Positions 231-64,000 of a DNA stretch of 64,000 nt are shown piece after piece (positions within the stretch are counted from its first letter, which is position 1; the number at the start of each line of letters is the position of its first letter). The position numbers and the translations under genes are program-made. Under the pieces are notes generated by a model. The model saw nothing but the letters and a program-made list of their open reading frames with translations, made no database searches and had not been told where the DNA came from. This DNA comes from the human T2T-CHM13v2.0 reference genome, Homo sapiens. The stretch lies in NCBI RefSeq assembly GCF_009914755.1, contig NC_060928.1; one strand, written 5' to 3'.

Positions 231-1813
231 TGCAGTTCTACTATTAACATTAAGTAAAATATCAGACATAGAGAAGTTGGTTTATAGGACTTTATTCTAG
301 GTTCCTTTGTTTATTACAATTATTTGCACTTTAAATTCCTATATATAATTTCACAAAAATCTCTATTTAATTTTTAAATTTAATTATGAGTACAAAATAG
401 TTGTATATACTTATTGGGGATATGCATGATGCTGGCATACATTGTGTAATGATCAAATCAGGGTAACTGGAGTATCCATCACCTCCAGCTTTTATCATTT
501 CTTTGTTTTAGGACTATTCCAATTCTACTCTTTTAGTTATTTTAAAATATACAATAAATTATTGTTAATTACAGTTACCCTATTGTGCTACTGAATACTT
601 GATATTCATTCTATCTAACTCTATTTTGCACCCATTAGTACAAGAGTACCCATTGTACTCCTTATCCCTCACCCTTCCCTATTACACTTCCCAGACTCTG
701 GTAACCATCATTCTACTCTCTGTCTCCAAGAACTCATTTTTTTTTATATAACTCCCACATATAAGGGAGAATACAAAATATTTGTCTTTCTGTCTCTGGG
801 TTATTTTACTTAAAATAATATCCTTCAGTTTCATCCATGGTGTTGCAAAAGACAAGGTTTCATTTTTTATGGCTGAATAATATTCCATTGTATGTATGTA
901 CCACATTTTCTTTATCTATTGATGAACACTTAGGTTGCTTTCATATCTTGGCTATTGTGAATAGTGCTGCAATAAACATAAGAGTGCAGATATCTCTTTG
1001 ACATTCTGTTTCCTTTCTTTTGGATATATACCCAGTGATGGGATTAATGGATAATATGTTAGTTCTATTTTAAGTTTTTTGGGGAATATCTATACTGTTC
1101 TCCATGGTGGTTGTACTAATTTACATTTCTACCAACAATGTAGGAGTCTGTCTCCATATCCTTGCTAGCATTCATTATTATCTTTTTGACAAAAGCCATT
1201 TTAGTTGGAATGAGATATCTCTTTGTCGTTTTGATTTGTTCCTATGATGATTAGTGATGTTGAGAATTTTTTTAAATACCTGTTGGCTATTTGTATATCT
1301 TCTTTTGATAAATGTCTATTTAGATCTTTTATTCGTTTTTAAATTGAATTATTTGGTTTTTTTCCTATTTAGTTGTTTGTGTGCTTTATATATTCTAGTT
1401 ATTAATCCCTTGTCAGATAAGTAATTTGCAAATATTTTCTCCCATTCTGGAGGTTGTCGCCTCACTTTATTAATTGCTTCCTTTGCTGTACAGAAGCATT
1501 TCCACATAATGTGATCCCATTTGTCCATTTTTGCTTTGGCTGCTTGTGCTTTTGGGGTCTTACTCAGGAAATATTTGCCCAGATCAAAGTCCTGGATTGT
1601 TTCCCCAAAATTTTCTACTGGTAATTTTATAGTTTCCAGTCTTAAATTTTTAATCAATTTTGATTTGATTTTCATACACAGGGAGAGATAGGAATCTAGT
1701 TTCATTCTTCTGCATATGGGTATCCAGTTTTCCCAGCATCATTTACTGAAGACATTGTTCTTTTCCCAGTGTATGTTCTTGGCAGCTTTGTTGAAAATGA
1801 GCTGATTATAAAT

Positions 1814-2034
1814 CAATCTTGTCCAACCTGTGGCCTGAGAGCTACATGTGGCCCAGGACAGCTTTGAATGCAGCCCAACACAAATTCATAAACTTTCTTA
1901 AAACATTATGAGATTTTTTTTTTTTTTTTAGCTAATCAGCTATCATTAATGTTAGTGTATTTTATGTGTGCAGCCCAAGGCAATTCTTCTTCTTCCAATG
2001 TGGCCTGGGGAAGCTGAAAGATTAGACACCTCTG
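1814..2034 (-). mobile_element. MER30 (hAT-Charlie MITE) inserted in L1MA ORF2
   Basis: caatcttgtccaacctgtggcc...gctttgaatgcagcccaacacaaattcataaactttcttaaaacattatgag...tcttccaatgtggcctggggaagctgaaagattagacacctctg matches the MER30 consensus (rc). Confidence 0.9.
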
Positions 2035-3920
2035 CAATGCATGAATTTATTTCTGGGTTCTCTATTCTGTTCCATTGGCCTATGTGTCTGTGTTTAGGCC
2101 AGGAGCATACTGTTTTGGTTACTATAGCTTTTGTACTATAATTTATAATAAGGTTATGTCATGCTTCCAGTTTTGTTCCTTTTGCACAGTATGTCTTTGG
2201 CTACTCTTGGTCTTTGTAGTTCCATATAAATTTTAGGATTGTTTTTTATATTTCTATGAAGAATGTCACCAGTATTTTGACAGGGATTGAAATCAATGTG
2301 TAGATTGCATTGGGTAATATTGACATCTTAACAATGTTGATTCTCCCAACCCAGAATATGGAATACCTGGAATTCCAATGGAATACCTTTCCATTTTTTT
2401 GTGTGCCCTCTTCAATTTTTTTCATCACTGTTTTATAGTTTTTATGGTAGAGATCTTTCAGATTCACTTTGGTTAAATTTACTCTTAGGTATTAATTTTA
2501 TTTGTAGCCATTGTAAATGAGATTACTTTCTTGGTTCCCTTTTTAGATTGTTTGCTATTGGCATATAAAAATGCTACTGATTTTTGTATGTTGATTTTGT
2601 AACCTGAAATCCTACTGAATTCACTTATCAGTTCTAATGGTTTTTTTGTGGAATCTTAAGGTTTTTATAAATATGAGAACATATTGCCTGCAAACAAGGA
2701 TAATTTGATTTCTTCCCTTCCAACCTGGATGCCCTTTATTCTACTCTCTTGTCAAATTGCTCTGGCTAGGACTTCCAGCACTAAGTTGAATAAAAGCAGT
2801 GAAAGTGGGCTTCTTTGTCTTGTTCCAGATCTTAGAGGAAATGTTTTCCTATTTTTCCCATTCAGCTGTGGGTTGGTCATATTTGGCTTTTATTGTGTTG
2901 AGGTATGTTTCTTCTACACTCAGTCCTTTGAGAATTTTTGTCATGAAGAGATACTGAATTCTATCAAATACTTTTTGGCACCAATTGAAATGATCATACA
3001 GTTTTTGTCTTTCATTTTGTTGATATGATGTATCCCATTTATTGATGGGTGTGTGTTGAACCATCCTTGTGTTCCTGAAATGAATCCCACTTGATCACAA
3101 ATGATCTTTTTAGTGTTGTTAAATTTGGTTTGCTAGTATTTTGTTGAGGATTTTTGCATCTGTTTTCATCAGAGATACTGTCCTGTATTTTTCTTTTAAG
3201 CTGTGTCTTCTACTGGTTTTGGTATCAAGGTAATACTGACCTCAGAATTAGTTTGGATATATTCTCTCCTGTATTTTTGGAATAGTTTGAGTAAGATTAG
3301 TATTAGTTCTTTCTTAAATGTTTCATCAAATTCAGCAGTAAAGTAATCAGTTCCTGGGTGTTTCTTTGATGGGAGGCATTTAATTACTGCTTCTATCTCA
3401 TTACAATCTTGGTAGGTTGTATGTGTCGAGTTTTTCTATTTCTTCTAAGTTTTCCAACTTATTTGCAAAATGTTGATTATAATAGTCTCTAATAATCTTT
3501 TGAATTTCTGAGGTGTTAATTATAATGGCTTTTTTTCATCTCGGATTTTATTGATCTGAGTGGCCTATCTATTTTGATCTGGCTAAAGCTTTGTTCATTT
3601 TGTTTATTTTTTTCAAAAACTCAACATTTTATTTCATTTACATTTTGAGTTTTTAAGCCTCATTCACAATTACTTCTGCTCTGATCTTTATTATTACTTT
3701 TTATTCTCTATTTTTGGTTGGTTTGCTTTTCTAGTTCATTGAGATATATTATTAGGTTGTTTATTTGAACTTTTTCAACTTTATTGATATAGGCAGTTAG
3801 TGCTATAAAATTCCCTCTTAACAGTGCTTTTGCTGTATCCCATAGGTTTGACATGTTGTGTTTACATTTTCACTCCTTTCAGGAAGTCTTTAGTTTTCTT
3901 CCTCTTCTTCTGTCTCTCTC

Positions 3921-4080
<160 letters not shown>

Positions 4081-4859
4081 TAATTTCCATGTGTTTGTAT
4101 AATTTCCAAAGCTTTTCTTGTTATTGATTTTTAGTTTTGCTCCATTGTGGTTAGAAAAGATACTCAGTATAATTTTAATTATCTGAATTATTTAAGACAC
4201 ATTTTTGGACCTAACATGGTCTATAATTAAGAATATTCCATGTGCTGAGAAGAAGAATGTGTATTCTGCAGCCATTGGATAAAATGCTCTGTAAATATTT
4301 ATGAGGTTCATTTCGTCCATACTGCAGATAGAGTCAGATTTTTTGTTGATTTTCTGTCTGGATGATCTGCCCAATGCTGAAAGTGAGGTGTTGAAGTTCC
4401 TAGCCATGATTATATTGGGGTCTATTTCTCTCTTTAGGTGTAATAATATTTCCTTTATATATTTGAGTGCTAACGTGTTGAGTGCATATATATTTACAAT
4501 TATTATACCCTCTCACTGAATTGATTGCTTTATCATTCCATAATGACCCTGTCTCTTTTTACAATTTTTATCTTGGAATCTATTTTATTTGATATAAGTA
4601 TAGCTATGCCTGCTCTTTTTTGGTTTCTATTTTCACAAAACATCTTTTTCCATCCTTCTACTTTTAGTCTTCTTTTGTTTTAACCTATAAAGATGAAATA
4701 AATTTCTTGTAAACAGCATATAGGCAAGTCTTGTTTTTTTATTCATTTGGCCACTTTACATCTTCTGGTTTGAGAATTTAGTCCATTTACATTCAATGCC
4801 ATTATTGATAGATAAAATTTATTACTGTCATTTTATTTGTTTTCTGGTTGTTTCATTGT

Positions 4860-6877: not shown

Positions 6878-6904
6878 AAATTCGTGAAGCCTTCCGTATT
6901 TTTT
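6878..6904 (+). pseudogene. RNU6: 3'-terminal fragment of U6 snRNA (5' part of a U6/L1 chimeric retrocopy)
   Basis: aaattcgtgaagccttccgtatttttt vs U6 3' end AAATTCGTGAAGCGTTCCATATTTTT (2 mismatches), joined directly to L1 3' sequence. Confidence 0.8.
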
Positions 6905-7020
6905 GGAAACCATCATCCTCAGCAAACTAACACAGGAACAGAAAACCAAACATCGCATGTTCTCACTCATAAGTGGGAGTTGAACAATGAGAACACATGG
7001 ACACAGGGAGGTGAACATTA

Positions 7021-8441: not shown

Positions 8442-10132
8442 ATTACACAGCGGGGCCTGTCGGGGAGTCGGGGAAAAGGGAAGGGAGAGCATTATAACAA
8501 AAACCTAACACATGCCGGGTTTAAAACCTAGATGACGGGTGGATAGGTGTAGCAAACCACCACCGCACATGTATACCTATGTAACAAACTTGCACGTTCA
8601 GCACATATATCCCAGAACTTAAAGTAATTTTTTTTAAAAGAAAGAATTCCCTGGGTTACTAAGGGAATTACTAAGCAAAGGCTCTCACTCCCTTCCCTCT
8701 CTTCCCGCTAATCAGAAGGAATTTCCCTTCCTGTTAGGCTGCCTGGAGTTGGGGGAGGGCAATTCTGTGGCCACCACAGCTGGGAGTGTGCTGGGTAATC
8801 GAGGGCAGCACAGTACTGGGTCTTGTCCAAGGCCCATGATGACTACTACCTGGCTACTGCCGATGTTTATTCCACGACCAGGGGCTCTTTTGTCAGTAGA
8901 TGGTGAATCCAGCCAGAAATGGATCCTTCCCTTCAGGATAGCAGATTCCCTTCTGTCCCAGTGTGGGTCTAAAAATGTCATTCAGGAGCTCAGACCTGGA
9001 ATTAGGGCCTTCAGAAATCTGCCTAGTGCTTTATTTTACTGTAGCTGAGCTGGAAACCAAGTTGCACGACAATGTTTTTGTACTCTTCCCTGTCCATTCT
9101 CCAAGTGAAGAGTCTCCTCCTGAGCTGTACTGGATGGAGTAGGGGGAGGGATGAGATAGGCACTCCTTGGTTGCCACGGCTGGTGTTACAATGGGTCATG
9201 CACAACCCAAGTCCATTGCCCCTGAGACCAGTGCAGCTGGGACCAGGGCTTGCCCAATAACTGTAATCCTATGGCCTGACTGCCTCTCAGATTTATTCTG
9301 GGCCCCAGGCCACTTTAGTCAGTCAGTGATGAAACTGGCAGGGACTTGGTTTTCTCCCACTGGGGCAGGGCATTCCCCTCTAGCCCAGGGCTGGTCTACA
9401 TGCTCCCTCTGTGGCACCAGCAGAATTCTGCCGTGTTGTGCTTCACTGTGACACAGAAGTACCGAGTTCCAATGCAAAATTCCTCACTCATGTGGCTCTC
9501 TCCCCCAAGCACACAGATTGTCTCTCTTCAGGACACTGCCAGGGTAGATGGGAGAGGACTGGTGTAGGCAATGCAAGACTTGTCTTTCCTACCCTTTTCA
9601 ATGCCTTTTTCCTTGGTATTATGTTAAATCAAGATTATGTGATCACTCACCTGATTTTTGCTTCTTATGAAAGTGCTTTTTTGTGTGGATAGGTATTTAA
9701 TTTGGTGTTCCCACAGGGAGATACTTGCAGGAGTATTTAGCCATCTTTCTATACATTTCTCTCTCTTACAATAATATTTGAACCTTGGAAAACATGTTTC
9801 ACTCATTGCTTATCTTTTGAACAAATATATAAGATATTTATTTTCATTTTTTTCTTTCAAATATAATTAGCATTACACAAATTCCCATTGTGGACTTGTT
9901 CAGAAGTACATTGAATATATTTATTTATTTGGGTAAATTGGCATCTTTAGAATTTTTGGTCTTTTTATCCAGGGTTTTGACATGTCTCTGTCTCTTAGAT
10001 CTTTTAGTGACTTCGATAAAGTGGTACTATTTTTATCTTCTAGATTTTTACATAATCGTGCTAGTTTTATTCTTAAGTATTTTATATATTTTTGTTGCCC
10101 GAGTTAGATATATTTTATAATTGTTTACATAT

Positions 10133-19399: not shown

Positions 19400-21150
<1,751 letters not shown>

Positions 21151-36531: not shown

Positions 36532-37088
36532 ATTTTATTTTTTATTTTTTGGTTTTAAATTATGGGATACATGTGCAGCACATGCAGGTTTGTTACATAG
36601 GTAAATGTGTACCATGGTGGTTTGCTGCATCACTTAGGTATTAAGCCCCACATTCATTAGCTATTTATCCTGATGCTCTTTCTTCCTTCCCCCTCTGACA
36701 GGCCCCAGTGTGTGTTGTTCCCCTTCCTATGTCCATGTGTTCTCATTATTCAGCTCCCACTTATAAGTGAGGATATGTAGCACTTGGTTTTCTGTCCCTG
36801 TATTAGTTTGCTGAGGATAATGGCTTCCAGCTCCATCCCTGTCCCTGCAAAGGACATGACCTCATTCCTTTTTATGGCTGCATAGTATTCCATGGTATAT
36901 ATGTAGTATATTTTCTTTATCCAGTCTATAATTGATGGGCATTTGGGTTGATTCCATGTCTTTGCTATTATGAATAGTACTGCAATGAACACACATGTGC
37001 ATGTATTTTTATAATATAATGATATATTATATTATAAATGTCTATTCCTTTGGGCATATGCCTAGTAATGGGATTGCTGGGTCAAATG
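36532..37088 (-). mobile_element. 5'-truncated L1PA (PA10-13-like) 3' end
   Basis: gggatacatgtgcagcacatgcaggtttgttacataggtaaatg...ggtattaagcccca; ORF 36750-36992 TWNQPKCPS..YTMEYYAAIKRNE. Confidence 0.9.
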
Positions 37089-37161
37089 CTAAGCATTTTA
37101 AGTAATATTTTTTTAATTAGTAAAGTAATGTATTCAATGCAAAAAGAGAAAAAGACAAATA

Positions 37162-52604: not shown

Positions 52605-54587
52605 TTTATTTAATTTATGTTTTAATATTTTCTTTATTTATTGGTAAATTTCAGTAGCTTTTGGGGCACAAGTGTTTTTTTTTTTTTTTGTCACATGGAT
52701 AAATTATATAGTGGTGAATTCTGAGATTTTAGTCCACCCATCACTTGAGTAGTGTACATTGTACCTAATGTGTAGATTTTTATCCCTGGCACCGGTCCCT
52801 GCCTCCCTCTTCTGAGTCTCTGAAGTCCATTATATCTATCTGTATGCTTTTGCATGCCCATAGCTTAGCTCCCACTTCCAAGTGAGAGCATATGATTTTT
52901 TCTTTTCCACTCCGGTTACTTTACTTAGAATAATGTCCTACAGCTCCATCTAAGTTTCTGCAAAAGACATTATGTCATTCCTTTTAATGGCTGAGTAGTA
53001 TTCCATGGTGTATATATACCACATTTTCTTTATCCAGTCATTAGTCCACGGACACTTACGTTGGTTCCACAGATTTGCAATTGTAAATTGTGTTGCTATA
53101 AAAATACGTGTGCAAGTGAGTGTCTTTTTCATATAATGACTTCTTTTCCTTTGGGTAGGTACCCAGTAGTGGGATTGCTGGATCCAATGGTAGATCTACT
53201 TTTAGCTCTTTAAGAAATCCCATACTGTTTTCTATAGAGGTTGCACTAATTTACATTCCCAGTAGCAGTATATAAGTGTTCCCTTTTCCTTACACCCACT
53301 CCAACATCCATTTTTTTTAACTTTTTACTAATAGCCATTCTTGCAGGAATAAGGTGGTATGTCATTGTGGTTTTAATTTGCATTTCTCTGATGATTAGTG
53401 ATGGTGAGCATTTTTTCATGTTTCTTGAACATTTGTGTATCTTCTACTCATGTCCATTCCCCACTTTTTAATGGGAATATTTTTTGTGTGTGTGGTAATT
53501 TGTTTGAGTTCCTTATAGATCTGGACACTAGTCCTTTGTCAGGTGTGTAGTTTGCAAATATTTTTTCCCATTCTGTGGGTTGCCTGTTTATTGTTTATTT
53601 ATTTTGCTATGCAGGAGCTTTTTAGTTTAATTTGGTCCCTATTATTTATTTTTATTTTTGTTGCATTTGCTTTTGGGGTCTTACTCATGAATTCTTTGCC
53701 TAGGCTGGCATCTGGAAAAGTTTTCCAACATTGTTTTCCAACACAGAAATTTTATGGTTTCAGGTTTTATATTTAAGTCTTTGATCCATCTTGAGTCAAT
53801 TTTTGTATATGGTGAGAAATAGGGATCCAGTTTTATTCTTCTACATGTGGCTTGCCAGTTTTCCCAGCATCATTTATTAAACAGGGTGTTTTGTACACTT
53901 TGTTGAATATCAGCTGGCTGTAAAGACTTAGCTTTATTTCTGGGTTCTCTACTCTGTTCCATTGGTCTATATGCCTAGTTTTATATCAGTACCACGCTGT
54001 TTTGAAAACTACAGCCTTGTAGTATAATTTAAAGTCTGGTAACGTGATGTCTCCAGATTTGTTTCTTTTGCTTATAATTTCTTTGGCTATTCAGGCTCTT
54101 TTCTAGTTCCTTATGAATTTTAGGATTTTTTTTCTAATTTTCTGAAAACTGGTGTTGGTATTTTATGGGAATTGCATTGAATCTGTAGATTGCTTTGGAC
54201 AGCATGGTCATTTTCACTATATTAGTTCTTCAAATCTGTGAGCATGGGATGTGTTTCCAATGGTTTGTGTCATCTATGATCTCATTCAGCAGTATTTTGT
54301 AGTTCTTCTTGTAGAGATCTTTCACTTCCTCGGTTAGGTATATTCCTAGGTTTTTTTGGTTTTGGTTTTGTAGCTGCTGTAAAAGGGATTGAGTTCTTGA
54401 TTTGATTCTCAGCTTGGTTGTTGTTGGTATATAGCAGTGCTATTGATTTGTGTACATTGATTTTGTAACCTAAGACTTTATTGAATTCATTTTTCAAATC
54501 TGAGTGTCTTTTGGAGGAGTCCTTAGGATTTTTAAGGAATACAATCGTATCATCTGCAAACAGCAATCGTTTGACTTCCTCTTTTCC
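52605..54587 (-). mobile_element. 5'-truncated L1PB (PB1-like)
   Basis: tagcttttggggcacaagtg..cacatggataaattatatagtggtgaattctgagattttagt; ORFs 52950-53132 and 54282-54566 (LFADD RT motif). Confidence 0.92.
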
Positions 54588-55122
54588 TACATGATTCTAC
54601 ATCTAATAGAATCATGTATTAAATATCCAATTAAAAAGTAAGTAAAACTCTAAATTCTCACTTTTTATTCCATCTATTGCTGAACTCCTCTGATCCCCTT
54701 CCCAGTTAAACCACTTGAAAGAATAATCTACAATCATATCTTCACTTTCTCATCACTTTCATTTTTTTCCTAAAATCTTTCCAAAATGACCCCACATTCC
54801 ACTCCTTGAGGAAGCTGCTACTATCACAAGAGATTTGCTAAATGTAATAATTAGCAAAACTTGTCTCTTTACTTTCTTGATCCTTCAACACCATTCAGTA
54901 CAGTTGACATGTGTGGAAACAGTATTTTTTCTTGACTTCGGTCCTACCATTTTCCTGTTTTGTTTTTCTTTTATCTCTTCCATTTTTGCTTTTCTCCCAT
55001 AAACTTTTTTGCTATTTTCTTCCATTTGACACGTAAGTGCCCTAAGGTGCAGTTCTAAGTTCCCGTCTCTTCAAGCAAATTTTTTTTTCTAAATAATTAA
55101 TTTCATCTAGAGCAACGGTTTT

Positions 55123-55429: not shown

Positions 55430-58148
55430 TAGAGCAATGGTTTTAAATAATATCTATATATTCCCAAATCTATATCTCTATAGCTAAAGTCCACAGACTA
55501 ATAAACAGCTTCCGATATATCCTTTTCCTTGAGTGACAAATATCCATTATAGATTTAACAGGACCAAACAAAATACTTGATATTATTCTAAAACCTGTTC
55601 CTCATCCTGTCTTCTTTATCTTAGTAGATGCAAACATTACCTACCCAATTGTTCAAGCCAACACCAAAATGTCATTCTATATTCCCTTCTTTTCCTCACT
55701 GCGACATCCAGCCCACTATCAAATCCTGTGACATTCCTTCCAAAATGTATCCTGAAAATATAATTTCCCTTCACTCAATCTCTCCCCAGCAAATAGAGTG
55801 TTCTATTAAAAATGGAAACCATATCATATCTCCTTACTGCACTTTAGCTTAAATACTTCAGCAACTTCTAATCACGTACAATCTCTACATTATGCTTTAC
55901 ATCTTTGCATCTTACTTATAATAAACTTCTGATTCTGGTTTTAGAGTCTTCCTGATCTGGTACCTGTGTTTCACCTTGCACAATTTCTTTCTCTCTCTCC
56001 TTCACTCTCTGCTGTGAACACATTTATCCTCCTTCTGTTTCTTCTTCATATCTTAGCACATTGTAGAAGCATTCTCCTTTGCACAGAATGTTGTTCTCTC
56101 TTCCTGGAATATTCTTCCTCTTCAGCTTAAAATGTCTGCATTCTTGTCATTCAAGCCCAGAACTGCCTTGGTGGTTACACAGGCCATCCACAGTAATCAC
56201 ATTCAGTTCTTAGTTCAAATTTCATCCATGGAGACAAGCCTTCTAATCACTTAATTTAAAACAAAACCAAAACAACCATCAGCATAATCAGAGTAATTTA
56301 ATGACATTAGGGGAGGGAGAAAAAGTAGATGAATGTGTTCAACTTCTACCTGCTAATGTATGTTTTTAACAAACCCATTTATAAACTCATTTTAAAATTA
56401 CTGATATTTTTCCCACCAATCCCGGAGAATAACCTCTACAGGACCATGGAAGTTGACAATAGTGTGATCCACTCTATCATCACTCAATGCCAAACACATA
56501 AAGGCTTATTTGTTCAATAATAAAAAGTGAATGAATTAAGTTGAAAGAGTATGTAATTTGAAATAAAAGAATTAGAGTTCAAGTCCTAAGTCTTTTGGAT
56601 ACTATAATTTTAAGCAAATATTATTATTAGGTGAAACTTAATCTTATACATTAAACATGAGATCACTAACAAGTTTTGTGTTCCAAAAAAAAATTAAGAC
56701 TGAAACTGTTGCTATATAAATGAATTAGGGGGAAAATCAAATGGGAATCAGGATGCTTTTTAATTAAATAAAACTTTAATAACTAAACCTGACTCGTCTA
56801 CATATAACTCCTGAGTCCAGCATAGCCTGAGTTGAGAGAACAAAAATACAGCAACAGAAACCCCCATGGCATCCTGTTTGGATAACAGCAGCCATCTAAT
56901 ACACAAGTGTGACAAGAGACACTACATAGCTCCAGTTATTAGAACAAAAATACCAAGAAAGGTGGGTAAGAATTTTATGTAGAGGCAACTTGAGCACAGC
57001 CCACCAAAATGATAGCCAGTTTTGTTTTGTTGTGTTTTGTTTCACTTAGAAAACCACAGGGCACATAGAGCATGAAAGATGAGATGGGCCATAGAGGTTT
57101 TAAAAATGGAAAGCAAAGGATGCTTCCAAGATGGCTGAATAGGAACAGCTCCAGTCTGCAGCTCCCAGCGAGATCGACGCAGAAGACAGGTGATTTCTGC
57201 ATTTCCAACTGAGGTACCTGGTTCATCTCACTGGGACTCGTTGAACAGTGGGTGCAGCCCATGGAGGGTGAGCTGAATCAGGGCAGGGTGTCACCTCACC
57301 CGGGAAGCACAAGGGGTCAGGGGATTTCCCTTTCCTAGCCAAGGGAGCCTAGCCAGGGAGTGACTCTACCTGGAGGAGCAGTACACTTTTGCCCAAATAC
57401 TGTGCTTTTCCCATGGTCTTCACAACTGGCAGACCAGGAGATCCCCTCCCGTGCCTGGCTCAGCAGGTCCCACACCCACGGAGACTTGCTCACTGCTAGC
57501 ACAGCACTCTGAGCTCAATCTGGGACACAGGAGCTTGTTGGGGGGAGGGGCATCTGCCATTGCTGAGGCTTGAGTAGCTGGTTCTACGCTCACAGTGTAA
57601 ACAAAGTGGCAGGGAAGCTCGAACTGCAGCTCAGCAAGGCCTACTGCCTCTCTAGATTCCACCTGTGGGGGCAGGGCATATCTGAACAAAAGGCAGCAGA
57701 CAGCTTTTCCAGACTTAAACTTCCCTGCCTGACAGCTCTGAAGAGAGCAGTAGTTCTCCCAACACGGTGTTCGAGCTCCAATAATGGACAGACTGCCTCC
57801 TCAAGTGGGTCCCTTACCCTCGTGTAGCCTGACTGGGAGACATCTCCCAGTAGGGGCCGACAGACACCTCATAAAAGCAAGTGCCCCTCTGGGACGAAGC
57901 TTTCAGAGGAAGGATCAGGCCGTAATATTTGCTGTTCTGCAGCCTCTTCTGGTGATACCCAGGCAAACAGGATCTGGAGTGGGCCTCCAGCAAACTCCAA
58001 CAGACCTGCAGCTGAGAGGTCTGTCTGTTAGAAGGAAAACTAACAAACAGAAAGGAATAGCATCAACATCAACAAAAAGGACATCCACACCAAAACCCCA
58101 TACACAGGTCACCAACATCAAAGAACAAAGTTAGATAAAACCATAAAG

Positions 58149-59163
58149 ATGAGGAGAAACCACAGCAGAAATGCTGAAAATTCCAAAAACCAGATCACCT
58201 CTTCTCCTCCAAAGGAACAAAGCTCCTCACCAGCAAGGGAACAAAACTAGATGGAGAATGAGTTTGATGAGTTGACAGAAGTAGGCTTCAGAAGGTCGGT
58301 AATAACAAACTTCTCCAAGCTAAAGGAGCATGTTCTAACCGATCACAAGGAAGCTAAAAACCTTGAAAAAAGGTTAGACGAATGGTTAACTAGAATAAAC
58401 AGTGTAGAGAAGACCTTAAATGATCTGATGGAGCTGAAAACCACAGTACGAGAACTTCGTGAAGAATACACAAGCTTCAATAGCTGATTTGATCAAGCGG
58501 AAGAAAGGATATCAGTGATTGAAGATCAAACTAATGAAACGAAGTGAGACAACAAGATTAGAGAAAACAGTGAAAAATGAACAAAGCTTCCAAGAAATAC
58601 GGGACTATGTGAAAAGACCAATTCTAGGTTTGATTGGTGTACCTGAAAGTGATGGGGAGAATGGAACCAAGTTGGGAAACACTTTTCAGGATATTATCCA
58701 GGAGAACTTCCCCATCCTAGCAAGGCAGGCCAACATTCAAATTCAGGAAATACAGAGAAAACCACAAAGATACTCCTCGAAAAGAGCAACCCCAAGACAC
58801 ACAATTGTCAGATTCACCAAGGTTGAAATGAAGGAAAAAATGTTAAGGACAGCCAGAGAGAAAGGTCGGGTTACCCACAAAGGGAAACCCATCAGACTAA
58901 CAGTGGATCTCTTGGCAGAAACTCTACAAGCCAGAAGAGAGTGGGGGCAGTATTCAACATTCTTAAAGAAAAGAATTTTCAACCCAGAATTTCATATCCA
59001 GCCAAACTACATAAGTGATGAAGAAATAAAATACTTTACAGACAAGCAAATGCTGACAGATTTTGTCACCACTAGGCCTGCCTTACAGGAGCTCCTGAAG
59101 GAAGCACCAAACATGGAGAAGAACAACTCTTAACAGCCACTGCAAAAACATGCCAAATTCTAA
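58149..59163 (+). pseudogene. L1 ORF1p, disrupted by stops and frameshifts
   Basis: ATG at 58149; fragments 58251-58487 (MENEFDELTE..) and 58519-59133 (IGVPESDGENG..IIQENFP..TTRPALQELLKEA); taa at 59161-59163. Confidence 0.9.
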
Positions 59164-59226
59164 AGATCACTGATGGTTTGAAGAAACTACATCAATTAAT
59201 GGGTGAAATAACCAGCTAGCATCATA

Positions 59227-63049
<3,823 letters not shown>

Positions 63050-63278
63050 ACAATGAGAACACATGGACACCAGGAGGGGAACATCACACACCGGGGCCTG
63101 TGGGGGATGGGGGGCTAGGGGAGGGATAACATTAAGAGAAATACCTAATGTAGTTGATGATTTGATGGGTGCAACAAATCACCATGGCACATGTATATCT
63201 ATGTAACAGAACTGCAGGTTCTGCACATGTATCCCAGAACTTAAAGTATAATTAAAAAAAAAAAAAGAAAAAAAGAAA

Positions 63279-63436
63279 TGCTGACTTCAGAGAAACAGGC
63301 TTGGGGAAACAAAACAACACAAAACAAAACAAGCAAACCAGTTAGGATACTTTCTGCTATAAGAAACAGAAAACTCTACTTGAACTGAGTTAAATAAAAA
63401 AGGAAATTTCGCCCCCCCTCCCCCCCCAAAAAAAAA
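63279..63436 (+). other. Candidate L1 3'-transduced segment with second A-tail
   Basis: Lies between the L1 poly(A) and the displaced TSD copy at 63434-63449; AATAAA at 63393-63398. Confidence 0.7.
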
Positions 63437-63449
63437 CATGGAAAGCAAA

Positions 63450-64000
63450 TATAGTGAAGACCTTAAGGGACATGAAAAAATTAAATTATAAGCCAGCAGT
63501 GGGGAAAACCAAGCACTAATCAGGTTAACAATTCAGATTCCCCAAAAGTTGCAAACATTAATAGCACCAATACCTCAGAAAATGGTTACGGAGAGAAGAG
63601 GAAGATACAATGAAGGGGAAAAAGTTAGTGTAAGAATAAACTAGGTTGTTCCCAGATTCCATTCAAGTAGTACCTGCCCTACCATTCTACTATTCTAGAA
63701 GAAGACTGACCAGTTGTTAAAGGATTTCCGGACTTGAGGAAGTATTACACTACAAACAGGTGCATTTAGTGACTGTAAGCACAGTAATGCCTGAGACAAC
63801 AGCCCATGCCCAGGGCTCTTTCATATGTTTATCATATCTCTAGGGCTCATATCTCTAGACCTCCAGAGACCAGAACTTTACTCTCTGGGGAATCTGACCA
63901 GCCCAGGAAAAAAGATTTGAAGATTCAGGACAAATCCTATCTGAATTTCCCAGGCACATCACTCTGCAGTTAAGCTTGCAATTGATAAGATCTAGTGAGG
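63450..64000 (+). mobile_element. Old L1M/HAL1-like 5'-region relic; the host element continues upstream at ~56960-57117
   Basis: aagccagcagtggggaaaaccaag joins logically to aaaccacagggcacatagag...atggaaagca upstream of the L1PA. Confidence 0.4.

What the first reader, a model, noticed from the sequence alone, without database searches (positions are those of the whole stretch)
57102..63449. Full-length L1PA7 with displaced TSD: ~150-bp 3' transduction
Seen: the 5' flank tttt|aaaaatggaaagcaaa (57102-57117) is a canonical endonuclease site. Its copy is not found after the L1 poly(A) (63254-63278) but reappears as aaacatggaaagcaaa at 63434-63449 (15/16 match), after ~150 nt of non-L1 sequence with AATAAA (63393-63398) and a second A-run. 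Established: L1 read-through of its weak polyA signal mobilises downstream flank. Inference: 63279-63427 is a tag from the donor locus and could identify an old source element and sibling insertions.
Basis: partly seen in the sequence, partly recalled or inferred. Interest (0 to 1): 0.75.

Follow-up and report, generated by a model that had tools for sequence, protein, structure and literature searches.

The report
Old L1 carrying a chr15 tag
A dead full-length L1 retrotransposon on chromosome 4 carries about 137 bases copied from chromosome 15 at its tail, an ordinary 3' transduction except that no L1 sits at the chromosome 15 donor site today.

Summary
A full-length, decayed L1PA-type element (57118-63253) with an internal A tract (63254-63278) is flanked by a 16-bp target-site duplication, 57102-57117 and 63434-63449 (15/16). 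The 3' copy lies about 155 bp beyond the A tract, and the target is a canonical TTTT/AAAA endonuclease site.

The sequence in between has exactly one other match in this genome: chr15:90,422,322-90,422,452, at 90% identity (E 1.5e-43). There it spans the end of one old repeat, about 115 unique bases and the first 5 bases of another old repeat. Chr15 is therefore the donor. Homology stops 17 bases after AATAAA, so the piece travelled as polyadenylated RNA.

No L1PA lies within 30 kb upstream of the donor, and the older repeat at the junction is intact. No sibling insertion carries the tag.

My best reading (about 0.7) is a classical 3' transduction from a progenitor L1 that was never fixed. The rivals are an ORF2p template jump or RNA fusion (about 0.15) and a second insertion into the tail (about 0.05).

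Twelve C-rich bases (63416-63427) are not templated by the donor and remain unexplained. The L1PA7 label could not be tested. The finding is ordinary and of low interest.

The parts
57098..57101 (+). TTTT immediately 5' of the duplication. With the A5 that follows it gives a bottom-strand 5'-TTTTT/AAAA-3' L1 endonuclease nick site.
   Evidence: Read directly. The consensus TTTT/AA is established knowledge (recalled).
57102..57117 (+). 5' copy of the 16-bp target-site duplication, AAAAATGGAAAGCAAA.
   Evidence: family D3; 4 hits at up to 2 mismatches against 0.33 expected.
57118..63253 (+). Full-length L1PA-type body (6136 bp): 5' UTR, broken ORF1, broken ORF2 and 3' UTR.
   Evidence: The 5' end coincides with that of 11 aligned family members, and 33 of 39 best 5' matches start at query bases 1-7. 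Pfam Transposase_22 and Tnp_22_dsRBD match 58534-59133, and RVT_1 matches 60823-61203. The longest ATG ORF on the + strand is 199 aa. The 3' 800 bp differ by 7.6% (substitutions) from the 19 nearest copies.
63251..63256 (+). The L1's own 3' signal, present here as the variant ATTAAA and read through in the transduction model.
63254..63278 (+). Internal A tract (A13 G A7 G A3). This is the L1 tail, inherited from the progenitor's genomic tail under the transduction model.
   Evidence: The 39 best 3'-end relatives stop aligning at query 808-833, that is within or at most 4 bases beyond this tract.
63279..63415 (+). Tag copied from chr15:90,422,322-90,422,452 (+). Homology may begin at 63273 (AAGAAA...).
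   Evidence: 90% identity, E 1.5e-43, the only non-self match.. (8 substitutions and 2 indels over 143 columns). No Rfam family at E up to 1.
63393..63398 (+). AATAAA polyadenylation signal inside the tag, conserved in the chr15 donor.
   Evidence: Homology to the donor ends 17 bases downstream of it.
63416..63427 (+). CCCTCCCCCCCC, not templated by the donor. Origin unexplained.
   Evidence: The donor and three other copies of the repeat that begins there read ACCCCAATTAC.
63428..63433 (+). Terminal A6, the remnant of the poly(A) tail of the retrotransposed RNA.
63434..63449 (+). 3' copy of the target-site duplication, AAACATGGAAAGCAAA (15/16).

Best explanation
One target-primed reverse transcription event, roughly 20-30 million years ago, inserted a single RNA at a TTTT/AAAA site on chr4. 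That RNA consisted of a full-length L1, its A tract, and the next ~137 bases of chr15.

The most likely origin of this RNA is a classical partnered 3' transduction:
1. A progenitor L1 sat on chr15 directly upstream of ...AAGAAATGCTG.
2. Pol II started at the L1 promoter and ran past the L1's own weak signal (ATTAAA in this copy).
3. The transcript was cleaved and polyadenylated about 17 bases after the next AATAAA.
4. ORF2p then copied this read-through RNA in cis into chr4, creating a 16-bp duplication.

The progenitor allele was never fixed, or was lost precisely, so only the empty chr15 site survives.

Shown: the duplication, the nick site, the full-length L1, the identity and direction of the donor, and the end of homology at a polyadenylation site. 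Inferred: that an L1 once stood at the chr15 site.
For: - A single 15/16 duplication encloses L1, A tract and tag, at a canonical nick site. It abuts the family's true 5' end.
- The tag has one genomic homolog, on chr15, at E 1.5e-43.
- That homolog is a composite: the last ~11 bases of one interspersed repeat, ~115 unique bases, and the first 5 bases of another repeat. Both repeats continue outward on chr15 only. The copying therefore ran from chr15 to chr4.
- Homology ends 17 bases after a conserved AATAAA. On chr15 a GT-rich stretch (TCTGATGTGATTATT) follows, which fits a usable polyadenylation site.
- Tag-to-donor divergence is 8 substitutions in 137 aligned bases. One search computed an exact 95% CI of 2.7-11.7% on the 131-base alignment. 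This matches the L1's 7.6% mean distance to its 19 nearest relatives, so tag and L1 are of one age.
- The leftmost possible tag start on chr15 is CT|AAGA, two changes from the TT|AAAA endonuclease preference. This is weak support.
- Priors from papers (passages read): about 25% of L1 insertions carry a 3' transduction, and most transductions end 10-30 bp after a polyadenylation signal (PMC13009371). Non-reference progenitors are common even among present-day events (PMC9311842 Table 4).
Against: - No L1PA lies at or near the donor in this assembly. A blastn of the 6161-bp L1 against 40 kb of chr15 gave one hit, a 67% old L1 piece about 18 kb upstream.
- The older repeat at the putative insertion point is continuous apart from a 3-base indel. 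There is therefore no scar of an imprecise deletion.
- No sibling insertion carries the tag.
- The 12 C-rich bases between the tag and the tail are not predicted by the model.
- The progenitor is thus an unobserved entity.
Confidence: 0.7

Rival explanations
1. L1/cellular-RNA chimera. ORF2p began reverse transcription on a polyadenylated chr15 transcript. After ~137 bases it jumped to the poly(A) end of a full-length L1 RNA (or the two RNAs were joined beforehand) and copied the L1 to its 5' end. No L1 ever stood on chr15.
For: - It explains directly why the donor has no L1 and no scar.
- The switch point lies in an A-rich patch (AAGAAA). The T-rich cDNA end made there could pair with an L1 poly(A) tail.
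- For 5' chimeras, the absence of an L1 at the donor gene has been used to argue for recombination between two RNAs (bioRxiv 10.1101/2025.02.02.635956, passages).
Against: - The passages read describe chimeras in which the non-L1 RNA is the 5' partner and the L1 is the usually truncated 3' partner. Here the order is reversed and the L1 is full length.
- The tag is no known structured RNA.
- No other retrocopy of the chr15 transcript exists.
- By prior frequency such events are far rarer than transductions. This is recalled and not quantified here.
Confidence: 0.15
2. Two separate events. A plain L1 insertion came first. Later a heavily 5'-truncated retrocopy of a chr15 transcript inserted into its A tail.
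For: A tails are good endonuclease targets (established knowledge). The divergence data cannot exclude a somewhat later second event, because the confidence interval is wide.
Against: - The tag has no duplication of its own. The G-containing bases just 5' of the tag do not recur 3' of it. At most about 5 pure A could serve as a duplication.
- Only A6 is left to hold the retrocopy's tail, its duplication and the rest of the L1 tail.
- The tag and the L1 have the same apparent age.
Confidence: 0.05
3. The displaced duplication is a chance match and the ~150 bp is native chr4 sequence.
For: A 14-base copy of the core also occurs inside the L1 (59426-59439). Such A-rich words therefore do recur.
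Against: - There are 4 hits against 0.33 expected, and the single one-mismatch hit sits exactly where a duplication should.
- The tag is a copy of a chr15 composite of older repeats and ends at a polyadenylation site.
- No alternative duplication follows the A tract.
Confidence: 0.02

Closest known systems
Partnered L1 3' transduction (read-through of the L1 polyadenylation signal)
   Same: L1, internal A tract, unique downstream sequence, AATAAA and a second A tail all lie inside one target-site duplication at a TTTT/AA site. The tag maps to one other locus and ends 17 bases after the signal. Passages of PMC13009371 describe exactly this architecture.
   Different: The donor locus carries no L1 in T2T-CHM13, and no second offspring shares the tag. 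A 12-base C-rich insert precedes the terminal tail.
L1 chimeric retrocopies (U6/L1, Alu/L1, mRNA/L1) made by template switching or RNA ligation
   Same: Two RNAs from different loci lie in the same orientation inside one duplication. The donor of the non-L1 part lacks an L1 (bioRxiv 10.1101/2025.02.02.635956, passages).
   Different: In the chimeras described there, the foreign RNA lies 5' of a usually truncated L1. Here it lies 3' of a full-length L1 that keeps its own A tract.
Orphan 3' transduction
   Same: Both are unique sequences moved by L1 machinery, ending in a polyadenylation signal and an A tail.
   Different: Here the L1 is retained in full. The chr15 copy is not an orphan either, because it has no A tail and runs on into native sequence.
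L1PA7 subfamily
   Same: - Primate L1PA-type 5' end (GG..CTTCCAAGATGG) shared with its nearest relatives.
- Length 6.14 kb.
- Pairwise substitution distance of 6.6-8.3% to the nearest copies, which fits an age of about 20-30 Myr at the recalled clock of about 0.17% per Myr.
   Different: Diagnostic positions were not compared, because no Dfam or Repbase library is available. The divergence would suit L1PA5-L1PA7 equally well.

Membership tests
L1 3' transduction | The target-site duplication encloses L1 plus downstream non-L1 sequence, and not the L1 alone. | tested here: met
   a 15/16 duplication at 57102-57117 and 63434-63449, and none directly after the A tract.
L1 3' transduction | Endonuclease-type target (TTTT/AA on the nicked strand). 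| tested here: met
   TTTT|AAAAA at 57098-57106.
L1 3' transduction | The transduced piece ends 10-30 bases after a polyadenylation signal and is followed by a new A tail. | tested here: met
   AATAAA at 63393-63398, donor homology ends at 63415, and an A run starts at 63428. Caveat: 12 untemplated C-rich bases lie in between.
L1 3' transduction | The transduced piece is a copy of unique sequence from another locus. | tested here: met
   one other match, chr15:90,422,322-90,422,452, 90% identity, E 1.5e-43. Direction chr15 to chr4.
L1 3' transduction | At the donor locus the piece lies directly 3' of a source L1 in the same orientation. | tested here: inconclusive
   Not met in this assembly: one search found no L1PA within 30 kb upstream, and one search shows the junction repeat intact. 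The feature concerns the ancestral population, however. An unfixed progenitor would leave no trace, and other primate genomes are not available here.
L1 3' transduction | Sibling insertions share the tag (supportive, not required). | tested here: not met
   2 of 2 scored candidates are the window itself and chr15; 0 of 39 best L1 3'-end matches extend into the tag.
L1PA7 subfamily | Diagnostic substitutions relative to subfamily consensus sequences. | not testable with these tools
   No repeat library is held. The paper with the consensus set was not held. Only the divergence was measured.
Template-switch or ligation L1 chimera | Two unlinked RNAs fused in the same orientation within one duplication, with no L1 at the donor of the foreign part. 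| tested here: met
Template-switch or ligation L1 chimera | The foreign RNA is the 5' partner and the L1 is the (usually 5'-truncated) 3' partner. | tested here: not met
   the foreign piece lies 3' of a full-length L1. Family description from passages read.
Nested second retrocopy insertion | A duplication of its own flanks the inner insert. | tested here: not met
   the bases 5' of the tag (…GAAAAAAAGAAA) have no copy 3' of it. Only A6 precedes the L1's own duplication.

The most novel reading that the evidence does not exclude
The insertion is a reverse-order L1 chimera. ORF2p started on a polyadenylated chr15 transcript and, 137 bases in, jumped at an A-rich patch onto the poly(A) end of a full-length L1 RNA. 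'Transduction-like' tags can then arise without any L1 at the donor. The untemplated C-rich 12-mer might be a footprint of unusual 3'-end tailing or of a further tiny template.
Probability: 0.13. Interest if true: 0.45.

Novelty: new member of a known kind. Interest (0 to 1): 0.2.

Why it matters
The value is modest. It is one more old L1 3' transduction, a process that affects roughly a quarter of L1 insertions.

Three points add a little:
- The tag pins down a donor site on chr15 that is now empty. This is either the footprint of a 'ghost' progenitor L1 that was active about 20-30 Myr ago and never fixed, or, less likely, evidence that L1 can pick up a 3' partner RNA without read-through.
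- It shows that absence of an L1 at the donor cannot by itself separate these two readings.
- The insertion lies in a gene-poor stretch. The hub table lists only lncRNA models elsewhere in the window, and no functional consequence is indicated.

Tried and rejected
- Source L1 near the donor: blastn of the 6161-bp L1 against chr15:90,392,322-90,432,321 gave only one 67% old L1 piece.
- Sibling insertions: the tag search gave 2 of 2 scored candidates, itself and chr15. None of the 39 best 3'-end relatives continues into the tag.
- Paralogous empty site: the 5' flank (56700-57117) and the 3' flank (63434-63850) are each single-copy in the genome, so no in-genome empty site exists.
- Flanks as an old L1, which might have explained the internal 14-mer: no significant similarity to the L1.
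- Tag as a known structured RNA: 0 Rfam matches at E up to 1 in the window. In the donor there were two chance-level hits far below gathering scores, 18.2 against 88 bits and 14.3 against 100 bits.
- Naming the repeat upstream of the donor: 0 of 9 ORFs from L002 1-1160 matched Pfam at E up to 0.01. Its likeness to a hAT-Charlie terminus is recalled only.
- The inverted match 57019-57043 / 63306-63330 (25 nt, 92%) is low-complexity (GTTTT/AAAAC-like). The motif is native to the chr15 donor, so I treat the match as chance.
- The paper with L1PA ages and consensus sequences was not held. A word search and passages of PMC9252281 gave no ages, so the ages and the clock rate in this report are recalled.
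- Outgroup orthologs, repeat libraries and gene annotation for chr15 were not available.
Full report
**The observation**

The 5' flank ends ...GGTTTT|AAAAATGGAAAGCAAA (57102-57117). It is followed at once by GGATGCTTCCAAGATGGCTGAATAGGAACAGCTCC.

The L1 ends ...GTATAATT and is followed by an A tract, A13 G A7 G A3, at 63254-63278. After that come about 150 bases that are not L1, and then AAACATGGAAAGCAAA at 63434-63449.

In the whole window the 16-mer has 4 matches at up to 2 mismatches, against 0.33 expected. None of 100 shuffles reached 4. The only one-mismatch hit is the predicted 3' copy.

A third copy of the 14-base core lies inside the L1 (59426-59439). The flanks show no other similarity to the L1, so I take this as chance.

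**The L1**

- Its first base coincides with the first base of 11 aligned relatives, which begin GG..CTTCCAAGATGG.
- Of the 39 best non-self matches to its first 983 bases, 33 start within query bases 1-7. These 40 matches were scored out of 7052 candidates and are 86-88% identical.
- It is therefore full length: a 6136-bp body.
- It is dead. The longest ATG ORF on its strand is 199 aa.
- Two of the six ORFs tested carry L1 domains: Transposase_22 with Tnp_22_dsRBD, and RVT_1.
- Its last 800 bases differ from the 19 nearest copies by 6.6-8.3% in substitutions, mean 7.6%. Those copies differ from each other by 7.5%.
- With the recalled neutral rate of about 0.17% per Myr, this points to roughly 20-30 Myr. 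The figure is biased young because the best matches were selected.
- This suits L1PA5-L1PA7. The label L1PA7 could not be tested, because no repeat library is available and the reference paper was not held.

**The tag**

A search of the whole assembly with 63279-63427 gave two matches out of two candidates. One is the window itself. The other is chr15:90,422,322-90,422,452 (+) at 90% identity over query 1-137, E 1.5e-43.

The alignment runs from AAGAAATGCTG... to ...TTTC(G/A)CCCC. It has 143 columns, 129 matches, 8 substitutions and two indels covering 6 columns.

A reciprocal search with 581 bases of chr15 scored 40 of 326 candidates:
- The chr4 tag was the only hit that covers the central part.
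- Seven hits belong to a repeat that ends at the tag's first ~11 bases. A chr2 copy ends ...AAAAAGTTTGAGAACTGCTG.
- Thirty-one hits belong to another repeat that begins ACCCCAATTAC, at the tag's last 5 bases.
- The remaining hit is the query's own locus.

Both repeats continue outward on chr15 only. The chr15 arrangement is therefore ancestral, and chr4 received a copy.

Homology stops 17 bases after a conserved AATAAA. On chr15 a GT-rich stretch follows. This is what a cleaved and polyadenylated Pol II transcript would give. The tag matches no Rfam family.

**What the donor lacks**

A blastn of the whole L1 against chr15:90,392,322-90,432,321 gave a single hit. It is a 67%-identical old L1 fragment about 18 kb upstream.

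The repeat that abuts the tag start is continuous, apart from a 3-base indel relative to a chr2 copy. There is no scar of an imprecise deletion.

No other locus carries the tag. None of the 39 best matches to the L1 3' end extends into it. Their alignments end at query 808-833 of 851, whereas the A tract ends at 829.

**Mechanism**

Three points show one retrotransposition event from one RNA, or from one continuous cDNA:
- The single duplication at a canonical nick site.
- The same orientation of L1 and tag.
- The matching ages. Tag against donor shows 8 substitutions in 137 aligned bases. One search computed an exact 95% CI of 2.7-11.7% on the 131-base alignment. The L1 pairwise distance is 7.6%.

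*Reading 1, classical 3' transduction (about 0.7).* The progenitor L1 sat at chr15 and never fixed, or was lost precisely.
- Transductions accompany about 25% of L1 insertions and mostly end 10-30 bp after a polyadenylation signal (PMC13009371, passages).
- Even among present-day events, many sources are absent from the reference (PMC9311842, Table 4 and passages).
- The leftmost possible tag start on chr15, CT|AAGA, is an acceptable endonuclease site. This is weak evidence, because the A-rich junction allows several boundaries.

*Reading 2, template jump or RNA joining (about 0.15).* ORF2p started on a chr15 transcript and jumped to the poly(A) end of an L1 RNA.
- This needs no lost L1.
- Absence of an L1 at the donor has been used as an argument for RNA recombination in 5' chimeras (bioRxiv 10.1101/2025.02.02.635956, passages).
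- The partner order here is the reverse of the chimeras described there, and such events are much rarer.

*Reading 3, second independent insertion into the tail (about 0.05).* The tag has no duplication of its own. Only A6 remains to hold the retrocopy's tail, its duplication and the rest of the L1 tail.

**Unexplained**

Twelve bases, CCCTCCCCCCCC (63416-63427), lie between the end of donor homology and the terminal A6. The donor and three other copies of the repeat that starts there read ACCCCAATTAC. The C run was therefore not templated by chr15 as it stands. Possible origins are slippage growth, unusual 3'-end tailing, or a tiny extra template.

**What could not be done**

- No outgroup or other primate genomes were available, so the empty-site test and the test for an L1 at the chr15 ortholog remain open.
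- The flanks of the insertion are single-copy, so no paralogous empty site exists in this genome.
- No gene annotation was available for chr15, so I cannot say whether the AATAAA site is a regular transcript end.
- No supplements were consulted.

**Verdict**

The feature is a real but ordinary old L1 insertion with a 137-base chr15-derived 3' tag. Its one mild oddity is an L1-free donor. Interest is low.

Noticed in passing
window 63416-63427: A C-rich 12-mer (CCCTCCCCCCCC) lies between the donor-derived tag and the terminal A6. It is not present in the chr15 donor or in three other copies of the repeat that starts there.
   Followed up: partly
window 59426-59439: An exact 14-base copy of the target-site core (AAATGGAAAGCAAA) lies inside the L1 ORF2 region. 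There is no flanking homology, so it is taken as chance.
   Followed up: yes
window 57019-57043 and 63306-63330: A 25-nt inverted match (92%) joins a (GTTTT)-like run in the 5' flank and an (AAAAC)-like run in the tag. It is low-complexity, and the motif is native to the chr15 donor.
   Followed up: partly
window 752-4855, 36533-37091 and 52859-54589 (minus strand); also 6904-7018, 8442-8626 and 19884-20310: Older L1 fragments at 65-76% identity to this L1, plus one 115-bp piece at 89% (6904-7018). They are unrelated to the finding.
   Followed up: no
L002 1331-1511 and 1627-1727 (chr15 donor): The donor segment is bounded by two older interspersed repeats. Upstream is one whose other copies end ...GAGAACTGCTG; by recall it resembles a hAT-Charlie terminus, and no Pfam support was found. 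Downstream is a 5'-truncated repeat that, again by recall, resembles an old L1 3' end. Alu-like sequence lies at L002 about 1195-1315 and 2460-2760.
   Followed up: partly
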